Part shown: positions 44,197 through 51,645 of the stretch, in pieces
Position numbering within the stretch: position 1 is the stretch's first letter
Layout: every line of letters begins with the position of its first letter
UHGV virus genome: UHGV-0240317
From: a virus
Length of the DNA stretch: 64,000 nucleotides
Direction: 5' to 3' (one strand)
Position numbers and translations under genes: made by a program
The notes under the pieces: model-generated
What the model was told of the DNA's origin: nothing
The model's database searches: none
What the model saw: only the letters and a program-made list of their open reading frames with translations

Positions 44197-44619
44197 TTAT
44201 TTCTCTCTCAGTTTGTTAAGTTTCTTTCTAGAACATTTTAAGTTTTCGGATGAAGAAAAGTCAAGTGTCTTTTCAGAACGTGGATAATAGTGCCTATCCC
44301 AAGAAGTTTCAACATCGTTAATCAGTGATGCTAGGTTACACAGGTCTGTACCACTTTGCAACCTCTTTTTAAGAGAATCTAGTAAAGCAACTGTGTCTTT
44401 AGCTTTACGTCTCGCTGTAGCAACATCTTTCATATGCTCAAATACAGAGCATTTTAAGTCATCTTCATAGTTTTCAGACAACTCTATTTCATGTTGTATA
44501 TCAACCATTCTCCTGTGATGGTGAGCATATTCCCGCTGAGCAGCAATGTCAAGTTCTTCCAACTTCTGCAAAGCTCTAACAAAGTCAGCTATGTCTGGGT
44601 GAACAAACATTTTCTGCAT
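44197..44619 (-). CDS. hypothetical protein
   Basis: ORF track. Confidence 0.6.
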   Translation of the reverse strand: MQKMFVHPDIADFVRALQKLEELDIAAQREYAHHHRRMVDIQHEIELSENYEDDLKCSVFEHMKDVATARRKAKDTVALLDSLKKRLQSGTDLCNLASLINDVETSWDRHYYPRSEKTLDFSSSENLKCSRKKLNKLREK

Positions 44620-44876
44620 GTAAGCCTCTTTTAAGTAACTATTAAGTTTTAATCTTTTATCTTAACGTATTCTATACGTTATACTTTAAAGCTTTTTAAA
44701 AGCTATTAAATAATCTTTTAAGAGTTTTAAAGTATCTGTATAGTTAAACTGTTAAGTAACCTTTTAAGTAAAAACCCACTTCGCAAAGATTAACACCTTG
44801 TCAAGTGCATTGTCAACTTGCTTTTTATAATTTTTTGCAGTAATGTATGAGGTTAATGATTTTAGAGGGAGTAAAA

Positions 44877-47019
44877 ATGGAAAACGTAGATTTTAAAAAC
44901 TTACATTTAGTTGGTGATACAGAAACTGATGGTTTACTCCTTGAGTTCACTAAAGTGCACGTAATGGCTTTCGCAGACTATAAATCTGACGATGAAGAGC
45001 CACCTGTATGGGTCTTTACAGATGAGCCTATCCTCGGTCACAAGTATACCAAGTACATTAAGGGTGGCTTACGTGAAGGTGTTGAATTTGCGTTAAAGGC
45101 AAAACGTCTTTGCATCCATAATGGTCTCGGTTATGACTGGTGGGTTTTTAATCACATTGCACCTGATTTATGGAACTTTGATAATCCAAAGTGTAAACCG
45201 TGGAGTAATTTCTTTCAGGATTCTCTTATCCAGTCTCGTGTTCAGTGGATGGATAGACCAACCCCAAAAGGTTATAAGGGTGCTCATGGCTTGGCTGCAT
45301 GGGGTGCTCGTGTTGGTGTCCGTAAACCAGAGATTGAACATTGGGGTGTGTGGAATGCAGAAATCTTCACTCGTGTTGTAGAAGATATCCGTATTAACGC
45401 CAAAACTAAACGGGCACTTGATAATGAATATCTCAAGCTTAAGAAGTGTGGCATAGATACTTATGAAACCTACATGCGAGCTAAAGAAACATCTTTTTGG
45501 ATGAGTCAACAAGCTATCAATGGCTGGAAAGCTGATAAAGAGCTTATGGAGTTCCATGTAAAGGAACTTGACAAGTTGACTAATGAGCTTGCTTCAGAGG
45601 TTGAACCACATCTACCTCCAACTATTAAGACCAAAGGTAAAGTCACTGGAGAAGAGTTTGCAAAAGCTTGGAATGAGTATGTTGAAACATTTGGTCATGC
45701 AGATGGACTGAAGAGAATTACCAAGTACCCTAAGACAAAGTATCGTCAGCAGGTACGTAATGGTGAGATGCAGACTTATGAAATCAAACCATTTGGTAAG
45801 CCAACTACAAAGATTTTTAACATTGAAAAGAGAAATTGCTATACACCAACCAACTCTGTAACTGGTGAAGAGTACAAGGAAGGTTTTGTAGCAATGAAGG
45901 ATGCTCGTGCAATTTGCAATGAGTTGAATGCAAAGATTGGTAAGAAATGCAAAGACTGGAAGCCAGCAAAAACAGTTAAGACTGTGAAGTACTATAACAG
46001 CCATGTTGTTAACCACTTTGAGCTTGAGTCAAGTCGCTACACAGGTTTGATTGATGCACCATATACACCAATCGAGTTCGAAGTTTCTCGTATGACTCAG
46101 GTAGCAGTTGTTAAAGACTACTTGAAATCAGTTGGTTGGATTCCAGATGACTGGAACTATAAGAAAGACTCTGATGGTCGTCCTGTTAAGGTTTGTCGCT
46201 TCAAAGACAACAAAAAGATGATTACAAAGCATCCTAAATGGCAGGAAATGGTTGAACGGTGTGGTTTGAGCTATGTTGAACATGAAGGCGTCCAGTACAT
46301 TGAGCATAACTGGTCTGTGAAGAAATACACAGATTTGCTTGAGCCTTGCTTAATCCGTACTTCACCAAAACTTACTGAATCATCTTATGATACGATTGAA
46401 GGTGAGCTTGGACAGAAGATTGCTAAGTACTATACTTTGATGCACCGACGCAGAACTATTGAGAACTCAAAGGATGATGAGAAAGGTTGGTTAAACCAGA
46501 TTCGTCCTGATGGTCGCCTTAGTGCTGGTGCAATGGTGTTTGGTACTTCAACTGGACGTATGACACAATATGGTATTGTAAACGTACCGTCTGGTGCTGC
46601 TGTCTATGGAGCACCTATGAGGGAGGTGTGGATTTGTGAAGAGGGGACTAACATTGTTTCTGTTGACCAGAACTCAGCCCAGCTTGTTTTACTGTGTAAC
46701 TTTATGGGTGATAAAGACTTCACCAAAGCAGTAACTGAAGGTAAAGAGTCAGTAGAGTTCACTAAGCAAGATGATGGTAGATACTACTGTAAACATCTTG
46801 ACAAGTATCTTAACCCAGAAACTGACAAGTATCTGCGTTATGATGCTGAAAATGACCTCTATGAAGTCTACACAGGGACTGATGCGCATACACTGAACAG
46901 TATTTACTTTGGTCTTAACAAGGAAGAAGATATTGTCCGTTGTAGGGAGACACAGGGTGAGGAACTTCTCCACGAGATTACAAAAGGTCGTAAGAAAGCC
47001 AAAAATGGCATTTATGCGT
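44877..47019 (+). CDS. DNA polymerase family A, exon 1
   Basis: start at MENVDF with GAGGGAG RBS; exo I DTETDGL; motif A VSVDQNSAQL; first half of motif B RKKAKNGIYA. Confidence 0.85.
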
Positions 47020-47287
47020 CAGTGGCGCATGTAAAACGTTGTGAATTGCTGGAAGCCTAAGTCTGTAAAGATATGGTAATCAGCAGCGAAGCCTCTTGAG
47101 AGGAACGTTCAGAGACTATCGAAAAGCATACTTAATGTATGAACTGAGTAGAGTAGGGTGGTAAGCTAATGACCATACCCAAGTGCAACGGTAGCATCAC
47201 TGCTACGTGATATAGTCCGACACTCCGTAGAAATGCGGAGAAGTTCATAAGAGAACTGGTACACCTTGCGAGTGTATTGACCAGATG
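47020..47287 (+). mobile_element. ORF-less group I intron in the DNA polymerase gene
   Basis: Q-like AATCAGCAG, R-like GTTCAGAGACTA, S-like GATATAGTCC; stops in the polymerase frame; boundaries inferred. Confidence 0.75.
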
Positions 47288-47844
47288 TATTGTTCGGTGC
47301 AGGTGATGAGAAGTTTGCCAAAACCATTAAGGCAGCTTCTACAGAGGAAGGTGCATTGACTAAGCAGACCTACTATATGCGTCTACCAAAGATTAAGAAA
47401 CTACTTGATAGCTTAGAAGCCGATTTTAAGGCGTCTAAAAAGGCTCTGGAAGAGGTTTTTGGGAAGAATTCTTCAATTGCTAAAGGTGGTTATATCAGAG
47501 TCGCTGGAGCATGGATATGGTGCAAATCTCCACATAAACTACTGAACTACCTCCTGATGAGTTCGGAAGCACAGATTCAGAATGAGGCCATCAACCTAGC
47601 AGCAAGAAAAGCCTGTGAAGATGGCCTGACAAAACTGAATGCTCGAAAACCAGCTATCGGAGCAAGGTTACTTCTGGCATATCACGATGAAAATAGTTGG
47701 GAATGTCCAGAGGGTATGACACAGGATATGAAAGCAATTGCTGACTGGATGTATGGACAAGCTTCAAAAAACTTAGGTTTGAGGAAAGAAACACTTGTAA
47801 CTGGTACAGCAAAGGTTGGTAAGAGCTGGTATGAGGTGCATTGA
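47288..47844 (+). CDS. DNA polymerase family A, exon 2
   Basis: continues motif B as LFGAGDEK (T7 pol FLYGAGDEK); carries the C-terminal polymerase domain. Confidence 0.8.
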
Positions 47845-48381
47845 TTGATGGATTTTATTTCACAAAAACGTTTAAAGGAGCTACTACACTATGACCCCGA
47901 AACAGGGGTCTTTACTTGGCTTCGTAGAGAAGGTAAATCAAGAGCTGTTAGTGTTTTTAACAGTAACTATGCAGGAAAGGTAGCAGGTAATGTTCAGACA
48001 GATTCAACTGGTCATAAACAGATTAGTATCTATTTTGACAAGAAAGCACATAAAGCACACAGACTCGCATGGCTTTATGTATATGGCAAGATGCCAAAAG
48101 GTATCATTGACCATATCAACGGAGACTCTCTTGACAACAGGATTGCAAACTTAAGGGAAGCAGATGACTTCCAAAGTGCTTGGAATAAAGGTAAACTAGC
48201 CACCAATAAATCTGGGTACAAGGGTGTAAGCCTTAAGAAGAAGTCTGGTAAGTGGGTCGCACAGATAAGTTATAAAGGTAAGAAGATGTTTTTAGGTTAC
48301 CATGACACCCCTGAAGAAGCCCATAAAGCTTACTGTGAAGCTGCTATGAAACTCCACGGAGAGTTTGCAAAACTAAGTTGA
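47845..48381 (+). CDS. HNH-AP2 homing endonuclease (free-standing)
   Basis: HNH motif HRLAWLYVYG..IDHINGDSLDNRIANL plus AP2-like YKGVS..KWVAQI..GYHDTPEEA. Confidence 0.85.
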   Translation: MMDFISQKRLKELLHYDPETGVFTWLRREGKSRAVSVFNSNYAGKVAGNVQTDSTGHKQISIYFDKKAHKAHRLAWLYVYGKMPKGIIDHINGDSLDNRIANLREADDFQSAWNKGKLATNKSGYKGVSLKKKSGKWVAQISYKGKKMFLGYHDTPEEAHKAYCEAAMKLHGEFAKLS

Positions 48382-48432
48382 CAAGGTGCTCATGGAAGAG
48401 TACCTTATACTATATCTTATATAGGAGGGCTT

Positions 48433-48642
48433 ATGAGCCATCGTGGAAGAACCCATGCAGCGATGATGAAAGGTGCTTCAAAGGAAACTATCAAGAACCG
48501 TAAGCAGAAGTTGTTTGAGAGAATGAATAGACTCATTGATAACACTTCCCTGTCTGGTGGTGAGAAAGTTTTCCTTAAAAGTAACCTTAAAAGCATTGCA
48601 CAAGAACTTGTAGATATTGAATATTGGGGACATCAAAAATGA
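48433..48642 (+). CDS. hypothetical protein
   Basis: ORF with RBS GGAGGG. Confidence 0.5.
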   Translation: MSHRGRTHAAMMKGASKETIKNRKQKLFERMNRLIDNTSLSGGEKVFLKSNLKSIAQELVDIEYWGHQK

Positions 48643-48857
48643 CACTTGCAGACGTTATTCAGCAACTTCATGATAACTGCTATACTCCAGAGTTGATTCA
48701 GGAGATGTGTATTGTAGTGATGCCTAGCAAGTTCGTAAAAGCCTTTAACAGTGACACTTTAAGGTCTGCACACATTCTTATTGTTGAAGGGAAGATTGCA
48801 AAAGACCGTACCGGAGTCCTTAAGGGTGAACGTATTGATATTGACTTAGCTTTTTAA
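48624..48857 (+). CDS. hypothetical protein
   Basis: ORF track. Confidence 0.5.
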   Translation: MGTSKMTLADVIQQLHDNCYTPELIQEMCIVVMPSKFVKAFNSDTLRSAHILIVEGKIAKDRTGVLKGERIDIDLAF

Positions 48858-48866
48858 GGGAAAACT

Positions 48867-49073
48867 ATGGAAGTCTTAGTAAACTATATCTATTGTTATG
48901 ATGTTGTTCACTCCACTACAACCGTAGCTCAACGTAATCCCATCATCCCACGAGAAGGTGAGTTGGTTCGCATTGATGGTTGGACTTACACTGTGGAAAG
49001 CATCATTCATAAGTTTGATGTTGCTGGCGATGTTCAAGTTATCGACGTAGAGATTGGTGGTAAGAGAAAATGA
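48867..49073 (+). CDS. hypothetical protein
   Basis: ORF track. Confidence 0.5.
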   Translation: MEVLVNYIYCYDVVHSTTTVAQRNPIIPREGELVRIDGWTYTVESIIHKFDVAGDVQVIDVEIGGKRK

Positions 49074-50170
49074 CAATCCTGTACAAACAAAATAAAGACG
49101 GTTCCTTCAACGTCTGGTCATGCGTTGCTGTAGGTGACAAAGTTATTACAACCTACGGTAAAGAAAATGGCAAGATGACGTTTGAAGAGTATACAGCAGA
49201 ACCTAAAAACATCGGTAAAAAGAATGAGCGTAACGCTGAACAGCAAGCCCTCTTTGAAGTTGCTGCTAAGTATAAAAAACAAGTTGACCGCAAAGGTTAT
49301 GCTTACACAAAAGAATCTGCACAGAATACTGAGAAGGTAGGTGTACAGCTTGCTCATGATGCTGCAAAGGTTAGTCATGCAAAGTATCTGAAGTTCCCTG
49401 CTGATGCTCAACCAAAACTTGATGGTGTCCGTTGTAGAATTTCAAGAGATGCTGATTCAGTCAGTTTCACAGCTTATTCTCGTGAGAACACTATTTATAA
49501 AATTCCTACTGAGCTAACACCTGACATTATGGCAATGTTGAGGCTCCATAAAGATGTTGATGAATTTGATGGTGAGATTTATGCTCATGGGTGGGACTTA
49601 GAAGATATTGTCTCTATGATTAAAAATGAAGACAATCCTGACAGACACTTACTTAAGTTCTACTGGTATGATATCTGTGACAGTACTAAAACGTGGCCTG
49701 AGCGTAGAGATATTATTGAGACTTCACCATTGAATGACTTTAGAGACGGCTGTAAAGTTGTTCCTGTTAAATCTCGTCGTGTAAATTCTTGGGAAGAGTT
49801 TGATGAAGCTCATGATAAGTGGGTTGAAGCTAAGTTTGAAGGTGCAATGTACCGTTCAATCTCTGAAGACTCCTTCTATGAGTGTTGTCACCGTTCATAC
49901 TTCTTGATTAAGCACAAGAAGATGCACACTGAAGAGTTTAAAGTGACTGGTGTAAAGACTGATAAGCGTGGTCATGGCAAGTTCGTTGTAGAGACTCTTC
50001 CTAACGTCTTTGTAGATGTCTCATGGAAGACTACTCATGAGAAGAAACAGTATCTTGCTGAACATCCTGAAGAGTTTATCGGGAAACCTTTGACGGTTCA
50101 GTTCCAGAAGATGACTCGTAAAGGTTCTTTACAGTTCCCTGTTGGGTTAGTTATTCGAGACTACGAATAA
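49070..50170 (+). CDS. ATP-dependent DNA ligase
   Basis: adenylation motif I PKLDGVRC; ~366 aa. Confidence 0.8.
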   Translation: MTILYKQNKDGSFNVWSCVAVGDKVITTYGKENGKMTFEEYTAEPKNIGKKNERNAEQQALFEVAAKYKKQVDRKGYAYTKESAQNTEKVGVQLAHDAAKVSHAKYLKFPADAQPKLDGVRCRISRDADSVSFTAYSRENTIYKIPTELTPDIMAMLRLHKDVDEFDGEIYAHGWDLEDIVSMIKNEDNPDRHLLKFYWYDICDSTKTWPERRDIIETSPLNDFRDGCKVVPVKSRRVNSWEEFDEAHDKWVEAKFEGAMYRSISEDSFYECCHRSYFLIKHKKMHTEEFKVTGVKTDKRGHGKFVVETLPNVFVDVSWKTTHEKKQYLAEHPEEFIGKPLTVQFQKMTRKGSLQFPVGLVIRDYE

Positions 50171-50596: not shown

Positions 50597-51202
<606 letters not shown>

Positions 51203-51204
51203 TT

Positions 51205-51645
51205 ATGAATACAAAAGCATTAGCAGCAAAGTTTAGTTATGGTGACACTGTATCACACTCTGAGATGGACACCTTCTTAGGTATTGTGAAGCCAACTTAT
51301 CAAGGTGACATTGTTAAGTACGAAGATGAAATGAAGGCTTATGCGCTTACACGTCTAAACCGACTTGAGAAGTTTATTGAGAAGCTTCTTAAAGAAGAGA
51401 AGATTTATCTGGTTGCTTCAATGGGTGTTGGTTATCGTGTGGTTGAACCTAAGCATCAAGCAACTATTGCAAAACGCAAAATGTCTGGTAAGATTGGTCG
51501 TGCTTTAAAGCAAGCCACTCAAGCTATTGAGAATGTGAACACTATGGCACTTAGTCATCAAGAACGCTCACGACTGATTGAACAGCAAAACCATTTAGCT
51601 GCTATGAAAGCTAACATTAACAAGCAACGTAGAAAACCTTTCTAA
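51205..51645 (+). CDS. hypothetical protein
   Basis: ORF directly after the previous gene. Confidence 0.6.
   Translation: MNTKALAAKFSYGDTVSHSEMDTFLGIVKPTYQGDIVKYEDEMKAYALTRLNRLEKFIEKLLKEEKIYLVASMGVGYRVVEPKHQATIAKRKMSGKIGRALKQATQAIENVNTMALSHQERSRLIEQQNHLAAMKANINKQRRKPF

What the first reader, a model, noticed from the sequence alone, without database searches (positions are those of the whole stretch)
47845..48381. Free-standing HNH-AP2 homing endonuclease immediately after the intron-containing polymerase gene
The ORF starts one nucleotide after the polymerase stop (TGATG overlap). It has an N-terminal HNH motif and an AP2-type DNA-binding domain. It lies ~560 bp from the ORF-less polymerase intron, an arrangement consistent with collaborative homing, where a free-standing endonuclease mobilises a nearby intron or marker-excludes competing polymerase alleles.
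Basis: partly seen in the sequence, partly recalled or inferred. Interest (0 to 1): 0.5.

Follow-up and report, generated by a model that had tools for sequence, protein, structure and literature searches.

The report
Free-standing HNH-AP2 homing endonuclease after polymerase

Summary
Window 47848-48381 (+) encodes a 177-aa protein with an HNH_3 nuclease domain and a C-terminal AP2 domain, 3 nt after the polymerase stop and 560 nt after a 268-nt ORF-less group I intron (47020-47287). There is no TGATG overlap. The window is a Felixounavirus.

Across about 263 related records the gene is one of at least five alleles of a cassette. The cassette sits exactly between the pol stop and a conserved TTGACA element, and the site is empty in 103 records. 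The gene is under purifying selection (dN/dS about 0.15). In one lineage it is more conserved than its flanks. It marks the right edge of a 1.2-kb hypervariable block that spans the intron site.

The intron occurs in three forms: 268 nt (45 records), an Endonuclease VII-type ORF in P6a (41), and a 310-nt ORF-deletion remnant (about 11). No ORF-less intron was seen without a neighbouring HNH-AP2 gene, against 15 of 41 ORF-containing introns. This favours hitch-hiking or HEG turnover, but shared ancestry confounds it (p about 0.06 at haplotype level).

Cleavage at the intron site is untested. Intronless genomes with alleles B and D argue against it for those alleles. Verdict: a known kind of element, collaborative homing partly supported, moderate interest.

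The parts
44847..47019 (+). DNA polymerase (family A) exon 1. It ends after U47019, inside motif B (O-helix) ...KNGIYA.
   Evidence: Alignment with the intronless pol of phage bumzen (L001).
47020..47287 (+). ORF-less group I intron of 268 nt. It has a short P6a hairpin (GCCUCU-UGA-GAGG), a 63-nt insertion relative to the Rfam model between J6/7-P7 and the 3' strand of P3 (where IA-type introns carry P7.1/P7.2; my reading) and omega-G at 47287. It is the ORF-less form of an intron that elsewhere carries an Endonuclease VII-type ORF in P6a.
   Evidence: Rfam RF00028 62.3 bits. Boundaries. The three forms were compared.
47288..47844 (+). DNA polymerase exon 2, with stop TGA at 47842-47844. It contains the Shine-Dalgarno-like GAGG (47833-47836) for the HNH gene.
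46650..47844 (+). Hypervariable block of the pol gene (67-82% identity to other Felixounavirus alleles, against at least 95% upstream). It spans the intron insertion site and ends at the HNH cassette.
   Evidence: Sliding identity profile. Mosaic exon-2 haplotypes.
47848..48381 (+). Free-standing HNH-AP2 homing endonuclease gene, allele type A (177 aa plus stop). The conserved start is ATG 47848; TTG 47845 is not conserved in relatives.
48052..48159 (+). HNH_3 catalytic core (aa 69-104). D88, H89, N97, N101 and N113 are invariant across the five allele types; N113 lies just 3' of this span.
   Evidence: Pfam. Alignment A1. I-HmuI match.
48211..48360 (+). AP2 DNA-binding domain (aa 122-171).
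   Evidence: Pfam. PDB hits to WRI1, ERF096 and AtERF1.
48307..48383 (+). Conserved right flank of the cassette. The last 24 codons are invariant in all alleles, with 90-100% third-position identity. The stop TGA (48379-48381) overlaps a conserved TTGACA (48378-48383) that also follows the pol stop at empty sites.
   Evidence: A promoter is annotated at the empty-site junction in phage AYO145A (H368).
47893..47910 (+). Perfect 6-bp GC-rich hairpin GACCCCGAAACAGGGGTC inside the 5' end of the ORF (codons DPETGV). It is identical at the nucleotide level in allele types A, A', B and D. Function unknown.

Best explanation
The ORF is an active free-standing homing endonuclease gene of the I-HmuI-like HNH plus AP2 type. 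It is allele 'A' of a polymorphic cassette inserted exactly between the polymerase stop codon and the conserved TTGACA element of the downstream genes in Felix O1-like phages.

Proposed mechanism:
- It has no promoter-like site of its own. It is probably expressed by read-through from the polymerase transcript, using the GAGG inside the last pol codons (inferred).
- In mixed infections the enzyme nicks or cuts a related genome that lacks this allele, somewhere in or next to the 3' third of the polymerase gene (inferred; the site is unknown).
- Repair copies the endonuclease gene and a variable stretch of adjacent polymerase sequence from the donor. This is intronless homing.
- Exchanged blocks ending at this gene reach about 1.2 kb leftwards, past the intron site 560-830 nt away. 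The ORF-less intron can therefore be carried along as a passenger, as in MobE-type trans homing. This would explain why ORF-less forms of the intron were found only next to an HNH-AP2 gene.
- The intron's own cognate endonuclease is the Endonuclease VII-type (DHHRN family) ORF present in P6a of the same intron in sister phages. That ORF is absent from this phage.
For: - **Domains and catalytic residues:** (I-HmuI 1U3E, E 1.2e-8).
- **Precise filled or empty site:** empty is ...CAC TAA TTAGTA TTGACAAGG; filled is ...CAT TGA [HNH] ...AGT TGA CAAGG. The site is empty in 103 records and filled in about 160 of 263.
- **Allele diversity:** five allele types share 48-54% aa identity with type A (type A' about 87%). 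They share an invariant 3' tail and a conserved 5' motif, so they behave as exchangeable cassettes.
- **Purifying selection:** dN/dS 0.14-0.19, with dS up to 0.63.
- **Horizontal spread:** allele A' is 87% identical while the adjacent exon 2 is only 74-75% identical.
- **Block boundaries:** the divergence block 46650-47844 ends at the HNH gene, and flanks are at least 91-95% identical.
- **Cassette breakpoints:** window-type pol carries alleles A, B (SP116) or D (LNA1), with breakpoints 0-25 nt from the pol stop.
- **Intron forms:** 268 nt (45 records), Endonuclease_7 ORF form (41 records), 310-nt deletion remnant.
- **Association:** ORF-less intron 56 of 56 with an HNH gene, ORF-containing intron 15 of 41.
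- **Literature:** Fang et al. 2018 (PMC6083498) list the JH2, EC6 and FSL SP-010 proteins as intron-encoded relatives of F-CphI. Trans homing and co-conversion up to about 2 kb are described for T4 MobE in PMC2790892.
Against: - No cleavage site can be derived from sequence. Activity, strand preference and target are all inferred.
- The intron-HNH association is confounded by shared ancestry. Counted as about 7 haplotype groups against 16, it gives p about 0.06.
- Exon 2 between the intron and the HNH gene is itself strongly mosaic, and HNH type assorts freely with exon-2 haplotype. Long joint tracts are therefore not the rule over evolutionary time.
- Flanks next to the intron change within 7-75 nt of the insertion site. 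This looks like breaks made at the intron site rather than 560 nt away.
- Cassette swapping could be plain homologous recombination through the conserved flanks, without any endonuclease action.
Confidence: 0.6

Rival explanations
1. Strict collaborative homing. [quoted passage not shown] The intron interrupts that site and protects the phage's own gene, and the break mobilises intron and endonuclease gene together, as for F-CphI and the psbA intron of cyanophage S-PM2.
For: - The arrangement matches: an ORF-less intron 560 nt from a free-standing HEG.
- ORF-less introns were found only next to HNH-AP2 genes.
- All 11 intronless records with allele A carry a private insertion-site variant with about 10 synonymous changes and one A-to-S change in 45 nt. 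This could be a resistance allele.
- Flanking-marker changes are concentrated within 7-75 nt of the insertion site even for ORF-less introns, which implies breaks at that site.
- The concept is documented in PMC3984707 and PMC6083498.
Against: - The same intron has its own Endonuclease VII-type HEG in 41 records. That enzyme is the obvious source of breaks at the insertion site.
- The private site variant also occurs with allele B (SP116) and with Felix O1-type alleles, so it may simply mark a polymerase clade.
- Intronless genomes carrying alleles B or D have the same insertion-site sequence over +/-90 nt as genomes with no HNH gene.
- HNH cassette breakpoints sit at the pol stop, not at the intron site.
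- The free-standing and intronic endonucleases belong to different Pfam families. No HEG-into-intron transfer is therefore in evidence.
Confidence: 0.17
2. HEG turnover without cooperation. The intron and the HNH gene are independent selfish elements that happen to share a hot spot. The intron was spread by its Endonuclease VII-type ORF and later lost it. The HNH gene neither cuts near the intron nor carries it along. The co-occurrence reflects ancestry and linkage.
For: - The 310-nt form is a clean deletion remnant of the ORF-containing intron, so ORF loss does happen.
- The window-type polymerase clade always carries some HNH allele, with or without the intron.
- The association is only borderline at haplotype level.
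- Barth et al. 2023 propose turnover as an alternative origin of collaborative-homing-like loci (PMC10448857).
Against: - The ORF-less intron is found with at least five different HNH alleles and several exon-2 haplotypes, and never with an empty site. In contrast, 26 of 41 ORF-containing introns sit next to an empty site.
- The 268-nt form is 97-99% identical across polymerase backgrounds that differ by 20-30%. It has therefore spread recently although it encodes no enzyme.
Confidence: 0.15
3. The protein has been recruited for another job (for example exclusion of co-infecting relatives as a benefit to the phage, or AP2-mediated regulation), or it is an inactive remnant.
For: - AP2 domains act as sequence-specific DNA binders and have been co-opted repeatedly (PMC10448857).
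- The gene is absent from 103 related records, so it is dispensable.
- A few relatives may carry damaged copies. D1-2 has a 535-nt match, and MBP4696116 is annotated as two ORFs.
Against: - The catalytic D88, H89, N97, N101 and N113 are invariant over five deeply diverged alleles, and dN/dS is about 0.15. This argues against decay and for retained nuclease activity.
- Presence/absence and allele replacement at one exact site are the behaviour of a mobile HEG.
Confidence: 0.08

Closest known systems
F-CphI and the ORF-less psbA intron of cyanophage S-PM2 (collaborative homing; Zeng, Bonocora & Shub 2009; Fang et al. 2018, PMC6083498)
   Same: [quoted passage not shown]
   Different: F-CphI is an Endonuclease VII-motif (DHHRN) enzyme with a demonstrated cut at the intron insertion site. 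Here the free-standing enzyme is HNH_3-AP2 with an unknown target. The DHHRN-type enzyme is instead found inside the intron of sister phages.
T3 and other T7-like phage DNA polymerase locus (Bonocora & Shub 2009, as cited in PMC3984707 and PMC10448857)
   Same: A free-standing HNH gene lies just downstream of a family A DNA polymerase gene, and related phages carry a group I intron with the ORF in P6a.
   Different: - By my recollection of that paper, which is not held in the library, the free-standing and intronic enzymes there are homologous. Here they belong to different families.
- The insertion site differs. PMC3428280 gives E. coli Pol I position 881 for phiI/W31 and 674/676 for SPO1, Pf-WMP3 and phiL7. 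Here the site lies in motif B, at about position 763/764 by my own alignment.
T4 MobE and the nrdB intron with defunct I-TevIII (trans homing; Wilson & Edgell 2009, PMC2790892)
   Same: A free-standing HNH endonuclease lies beside a gene whose intron has no working endonuclease. The intron is proposed to spread as a passenger on co-conversion tracts. This is the model that best fits the data here.
   Different: MobE nicking and inheritance were shown experimentally; nothing is shown here. MobE is not reported to have an AP2 domain.
I-HmuI (SPO1 DNA polymerase intron, PDB 1U3E)
   Same: It is the closest solved relative of the nuclease half (profile E 1.2e-8). Both act in the context of phage family A polymerase genes.
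   Different: I-HmuI is intron-encoded, and its C-terminal DNA-binding module is a different one (from memory). The protein here is free-standing and has an AP2 domain.
HNH-AP2 homing endonuclease family (Magnani et al. 2004; 'IPA-HNH' HEGs and HEG islands of Barth et al. 2023, PMC10448857)
   Same: - The architecture is the same: HNH followed by AP2.
- 29% of the IPA-HNH genes that lie in essential-gene neighbourhoods sit near DNA polymerase genes.
- The nuclease gene sits at the boundary of a block of genetic exchange.
   Different: ICP1 IPA-HNH domains are too divergent for the HNH_3 profile, whereas this one matches it well. The Felixounavirus locus was not analysed in that paper as far as the passages I read show.

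Membership tests
HNH (beta-beta-alpha-Me) homing endonucleases, HNH_3 / I-HmuI type | HNH_3 catalytic domain with conserved His and Asn residues | tested here: met
   Pfam HNH_3 E 5e-15. D88, H89, N97, N101 and N113 are invariant in five allele types. Profile hit to I-HmuI 1U3E, E 1.2e-8.
HNH (beta-beta-alpha-Me) homing endonucleases, HNH_3 / I-HmuI type | Site-specific nicking or cleavage of a long target in alleles that lack the gene | not testable with these tools
   This needs an enzyme assay. No target could be inferred from sequence.
Free-standing homing endonuclease genes (intronless homing) | Presence/absence polymorphism at one precise intergenic site between conserved genes | tested here: met
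   Filled and empty junctions were aligned to the base. There are 103 empty-site records and about 160 filled.
Free-standing homing endonuclease genes (intronless homing) | Evidence of horizontal spread: the element is more conserved than its flanks, or sits at a boundary of exchanged sequence | tested here: met
   Allele A' is 87% identical against 74-75% for exon 2. The divergence block ends at the HNH gene.
HNH-AP2 homing endonuclease family | HNH nuclease domain followed by a C-terminal AP2 DNA-binding domain in one polypeptide | tested here: met
   Pfam AP2 E 1.6e-12 at aa 122-171. PDB AP2/ERF hits.
Collaborative homing (F-CphI type) | [quoted passage not shown] | tested here: met
   Intron 47020-47287 with no ORF; HNH gene 560 nt downstream.
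Collaborative homing (F-CphI type) | The endonuclease cuts intronless alleles at the intron insertion site | not testable with these tools
   Only indirect evidence is available. Intronless genomes with alleles B or D have the same site sequence as HNH-less genomes, which argues against this for those alleles. For allele A the data neither support nor exclude it.
Collaborative homing (F-CphI type) | The intron protects the carrier genome by interrupting the target | tested here: inconclusive
   11 records carry allele A without the intron. All of them have a private insertion-site variant, but that variant also occurs with other alleles.
Trans homing (MobE / I-TevIII type) | The neighbouring intron lacks a functional endonuclease of its own | tested here: met
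   The 268-nt form has no ORF. The 310-nt form is a deletion remnant of the ORF-containing form. The window has no Endonuclease VII homologue.
Trans homing (MobE / I-TevIII type) | Intron and endonuclease gene are co-inherited through co-conversion | tested here: inconclusive
   ORF-less intron 56 of 56 with HNH against 15 of 41 for the ORF-containing intron (p 2e-13 by records, about 0.06 by haplotype groups). The exchanged block spans both elements. Exon 2 between them is mosaic.

The most novel reading that the evidence does not exclude
The Felixounavirus polymerase locus is a natural time series of homing-endonuclease turnover. A group I intron that entered with a DHHRN (Endonuclease VII-type) HEG loses that ORF and persists only where a free-standing HNH-AP2 cassette next door takes over its mobilisation. 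ORF-less introns are then obligate passengers of the neighbouring HEG, and the competing HEGs drive the hypervariability of the last third of an essential polymerase gene.
Probability: 0.3. Interest if true: 0.6.

Novelty: new member of a known kind. Interest (0 to 1): 0.4.

Why it matters
Free-standing HNH-AP2 endonuclease genes beside phage DNA polymerase genes, and collaborative or trans homing, are established ideas. The gene itself is already annotated as an HNH or homing endonuclease in dozens of GenBank records.

What this locus adds is an unusually rich natural experiment. Roughly 260 sequenced Felix O1-like phages are widely used in Salmonella and E. coli biocontrol. They carry every combination of three intron states and at least five endonuclease alleles or an empty site, within an otherwise 95% identical backbone.

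If the association between ORF-less introns and the neighbouring endonuclease is causal, it gives a tractable E. coli/Salmonella system for an open question. That question is whether collaborative-homing arrangements arise by cooperation or by HEG turnover, as raised by Barth et al. 2023. The same crosses would measure how selfish nucleases diversify an essential replication gene.

Practically, it also explains why the polymerase is annotated as two genes and why this region is a recombination hot spot in therapeutic phage genomes.

Tried and rejected
- **More independent genomes.** IMG/VR gave only 16 related loci. The ORF-less junction pattern matched one IMG/VR contig already known and no metagenome contig. 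A shorter intron-core pattern pulled 90 metagenome loci, all unrelated group I introns with no Felixounavirus polymerase. The association therefore rests on GenBank records only.
- **Literature.** No held paper describes the Felixounavirus polymerase intron together with the HNH gene. The Felix O1 genome paper reports no introns in Felix O1 itself. Bonocora & Shub 2009 is not held.
- **A second copy or a cognate intron enzyme in the window.** There is no paralogue of the HNH-AP2 gene and no Endonuclease VII homologue in the 64-kb window. There is only one Rfam hit.
- **A counter-example to insertion-site targeting by allele A.** I searched for allele A in an intronless genome with the common site sequence. 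None was found; all 11 have the private variant.
- **A universal co-conversion tract.** I first thought all intron-bearing alleles share an identical -37..+10 exon flank. More loci showed that only about -7..+10, the P1/P10 nucleotides, is universal.
- **Own promoter or terminator.** The consensus scan found no promoter-like site between pol and HNH. Its only terminator-like site is the internal hairpin at 47893-47910.
- **Not run.** Structure prediction and the large protein searches were not run, because Pfam and PDB profile hits already settle the fold assignment.

Full report
**What the window is**

The polymerase region (44800-48700) matches 263 phage records. Nearly all are Felixounavirus (Felix O1-like myoviruses of Salmonella, E. 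coli, Shigella and Citrobacter), and the best matches are 96% identical.

**The observation**

- The ORF listing gives an ORF at 47845..48381 (+) directly after the ORF that ends at 47844.
- The sequence reads ...CAT TGA TTG ATG GAT....
- Close relatives read TGA TTA ATG. The conserved start is therefore ATG 47848, which gives 177 aa, and there is no TGATG overlap. Such an overlap exists in allele type B of other phages.
- Pfam finds HNH_3 (aa 69-104, 5e-15) and AP2 (aa 122-171, 1.6e-12).
- PHROGs gives phrog_99, HNH endonuclease, 5e-72.
- A profile of the five allele types reaches I-HmuI (1U3E, 1.2e-8) for the nuclease half and plant AP2/ERF structures for the C-terminal half.

**The intron**

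- Rfam RF00028 scores 62.3 bits against a gathering score of 50.
- Alignment with the intronless polymerase of phage bumzen fixes the intron at 47020-47287 (268 nt). Splicing restores ...GRKKAKNGIYA|LLFGAGD..., which is motif B of family A polymerases.
- By eye, P1 (exon AUGCGU pairing with intron GCGCAU, U.G at the splice site) and P10 (intron CAGUG with exon UAUUG) fit these junctions.
- Published polymerase intron sites are E. coli Pol I positions 674/676 and 881 (PMC3428280). By my own alignment this site is near 763/764, so it is a different site.

**The gene is one allele of a mobile cassette**

- In 103 records the site is empty...GTACAC TAA TTAGTA TTGACAAGGTGCTC....
- In the others an HNH-AP2 gene sits exactly between the pol stop and that TTGACA. 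Its own stop (AGT TGA CAAGG) overlaps the TTGACA.
- At least five allele types occupy the site. They are A (the window), A' (87% aa identity), B, D and E (48-54% aa identity to A).
- Their bodies are saturated at third codon positions (14-50% identity). The last 24 codons are invariant with 90-100% third-position identity, and the 5' YDPETGV motif is also conserved at the nucleotide level. This is what exchangeable cassettes with homologous flanks look like.
- The catalytic D88, H89, N97, N101 and N113 are invariant.
- Among A and A' alleles dN/dS is 0.14-0.19, with dS up to 0.63. The protein is under purifying selection.
- In SUSP2-type phages the A' allele is 87% identical to the window gene while the adjacent exon 2 is only 74-75% identical. 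The element has moved between backgrounds.

**A hypervariable block bounded by the gene**

- Against genomes of other polymerase clades the window is 95-100% identical over 44250-46650.
- Identity falls to 67-82% from about 46650 to the pol stop. It returns to at least 91% within the last 75 nt of the HNH ORF.
- The block starts about 370 nt upstream of the intron site and ends at the endonuclease gene.
- Inside it, exon 2 is a mosaic of several haplotypes, and HNH type assorts freely with them. The window-type polymerase carries allele A, B (SP116) or D (LNA1), with left breakpoints 0-25 nt from the pol stop.
- This matches the 'HEG island' and boundary-of-exchange picture of Barth et al. 2023 (PMC10448857).

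**The intron has its own endonuclease elsewhere**

The same intron, 97-99% identical, occurs in three forms:

| Form | Length | Records | Feature |
|---|---|---|---|
| (i) ORF-less, short P6a | 268 nt | 45, including the window | Short P6a hairpin |
| (ii) ORF-containing | 780-805 nt | 41 | 161-aa ORF in an extended P6a |
| (iii) Deletion remnant | about 310 nt | about 11 | Keeps the extended P6a and the ends of the insert |

- The ORF of form (ii) matches Endonuclease_7 (PF02945, 6e-20).
- Form (iii) shows that ORF loss does happen.
- Fang et al. 2018 already list the JH2, EC6 and FSL SP-010 proteins as intron-encoded relatives of F-CphI in the DHHRN family (PMC6083498).
- VpaE1 has an intron 98% identical to the window's in exons only 78-83% identical. 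The intron is therefore horizontally mobile.
- Only about -7..+10 around the insertion site, the P1/P10 nucleotides, is common to all intron-bearing alleles. Further out the flanks switch haplotype at different distances, as expected from repeated repair events at that site.
- The window contains no Endonuclease VII homologue.

**Cross-tabulation of intron state and HNH presence**

| Intron state | With HNH-AP2 after pol | Empty site |
|---|---|---|
| 268-nt ORF-less (45) | 45: A 32, B 8, D 2, E 3 | 0 |
| 310-nt remnant (about 11) | all 10 listed | 0 seen |
| ORF-containing (41) | 15 (13 of type B; DE7 and PC79-13 not typed) | about 26 |
| Intronless (about 166) | about 89 | about 77 |

- fBSPA4 among the type E records was not fetched. 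I inferred its state from fKMPT1, which has the same match coordinates.
- By records, ORF-less against ORF-containing gives p = 2e-13.
- Records are not independent. Counted as roughly 7 haplotype groups against 6 or 16, p is 0.06-0.07.
- The association is striking but not proven.

**Bearing on collaborative homing**

In favour:
- The arrangement and the association both fit.
- Exchanged blocks ending at the HNH gene are long enough to include the intron.
- All 11 intronless carriers of allele A have a private insertion-site variant with about 10 synonymous changes and an A-to-S change.

Against cleavage at the intron site:
- That variant also occurs with allele B and with Felix O1-type alleles, so it may only mark a clade.
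- Intronless carriers of alleles B and D have the same site sequence over +/-90 nt as HNH-less genomes.
- Cassette breakpoints lie at the pol stop.
- An intron-encoded enzyme exists that is expected to cut at the site.
- The two endonucleases are unrelated at family level. The T3-type route, in which a free-standing HEG moves into the intron, is not in evidence.

**Conclusion**

The gene is a functional free-standing HNH-AP2 homing endonuclease that spreads by intronless homing at the pol/promoter junction. The ORF-less intron most likely travels with it as a passenger, as in MobE-type trans homing (PMC2790892). Alternatively the locus reflects HEG turnover, as Barth et al. suggest. Strict insertion-site targeting remains possible for allele A but is the less likely reading. 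None of the enzymology can be settled computationally. The decisive assays and crosses are listed separately.

**Limits**

- Counts come from BLAST listings capped at 60 rows. I combined several complementary queries to cover them.
- GenBank/RefSeq duplicates and near-identical isolates inflate the numbers.
- HNH state for some records was inferred from match span and annotation rather than from fetched sequence.
- The promoter role of the TTGACA element rests on conservation and on one record's annotation (H368).

Noticed in passing
window 46650-47844: The last third of the polymerase gene is a hypervariable, mosaic block (67-82% identity to other Felixounavirus alleles; some 80-nt segments reach only 52-65%). 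It sits inside a backbone that is at least 95% identical, and it is bounded on the right by the HNH cassette.
   Followed up: partly
window 47893-47910: An 18-nt perfect hairpin GACCCCGAAACAGGGGTC inside the 5' end of the HNH ORF is identical at every synonymous position in allele types A, A', B and D, which are otherwise saturated. It was flagged as terminator-like. It could be an attenuator, a recombination handle or a product of gene conversion.
   Followed up: partly
window 47827-47862: The predicted RNA fold pairs the Shine-Dalgarno-like GAGG and the ATG 47848 of the HNH gene in a hairpin (z = -2.4 for the 111-nt stretch). This resembles the translational restraint known for some T4 endonuclease genes.
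   Followed up: no
window 48307-48383: The last 24 codons of all five HNH-AP2 allele types are invariant, with near-identical third positions. The stop codon overlaps a conserved TTGACA that directly follows the pol stop at empty sites. The right edge of the mobile cassette therefore lies inside the ORF.
   Followed up: yes
L020:1613-2098 (VSe102); L019:3109-3569 (VpaE1): The same intron carries a 161-aa Endonuclease_7 (DHHRN-type) ORF in P6a in 41 records. In VpaE1 it is split into two overlapping ORFs, probably by a frameshift. In S19cd-type phages a 310-nt form keeps only the ends of the insert.
   Followed up: partly
window 49500-49800 and 48750-49100: The DNA ligase gene has its own divergent patch (72-77% identity to several relatives). 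Relatives also carry insertions of 190-720 nt between the small ORFs upstream of ligase. The pSJ21 and tootiki records annotate an extra short 'DNA ligase' ORF there.
   Followed up: no
window 50850-51600: This region is replaced by unrelated or very divergent sequence (46-64% identity) in L005 (BPS17W1) and L007, while other relatives are 95-100% identical.
   Followed up: no
GenBank MG065664/MG065668 ('Campylobacter phage A132/A126') and GU169904 ('Staphylococcus phage SA1'): Records named for Campylobacter and Staphylococcus phages contain Felixounavirus polymerase/HNH sequence at 96-100% identity. They are probably contaminated or mislabelled assemblies.
   Followed up: no
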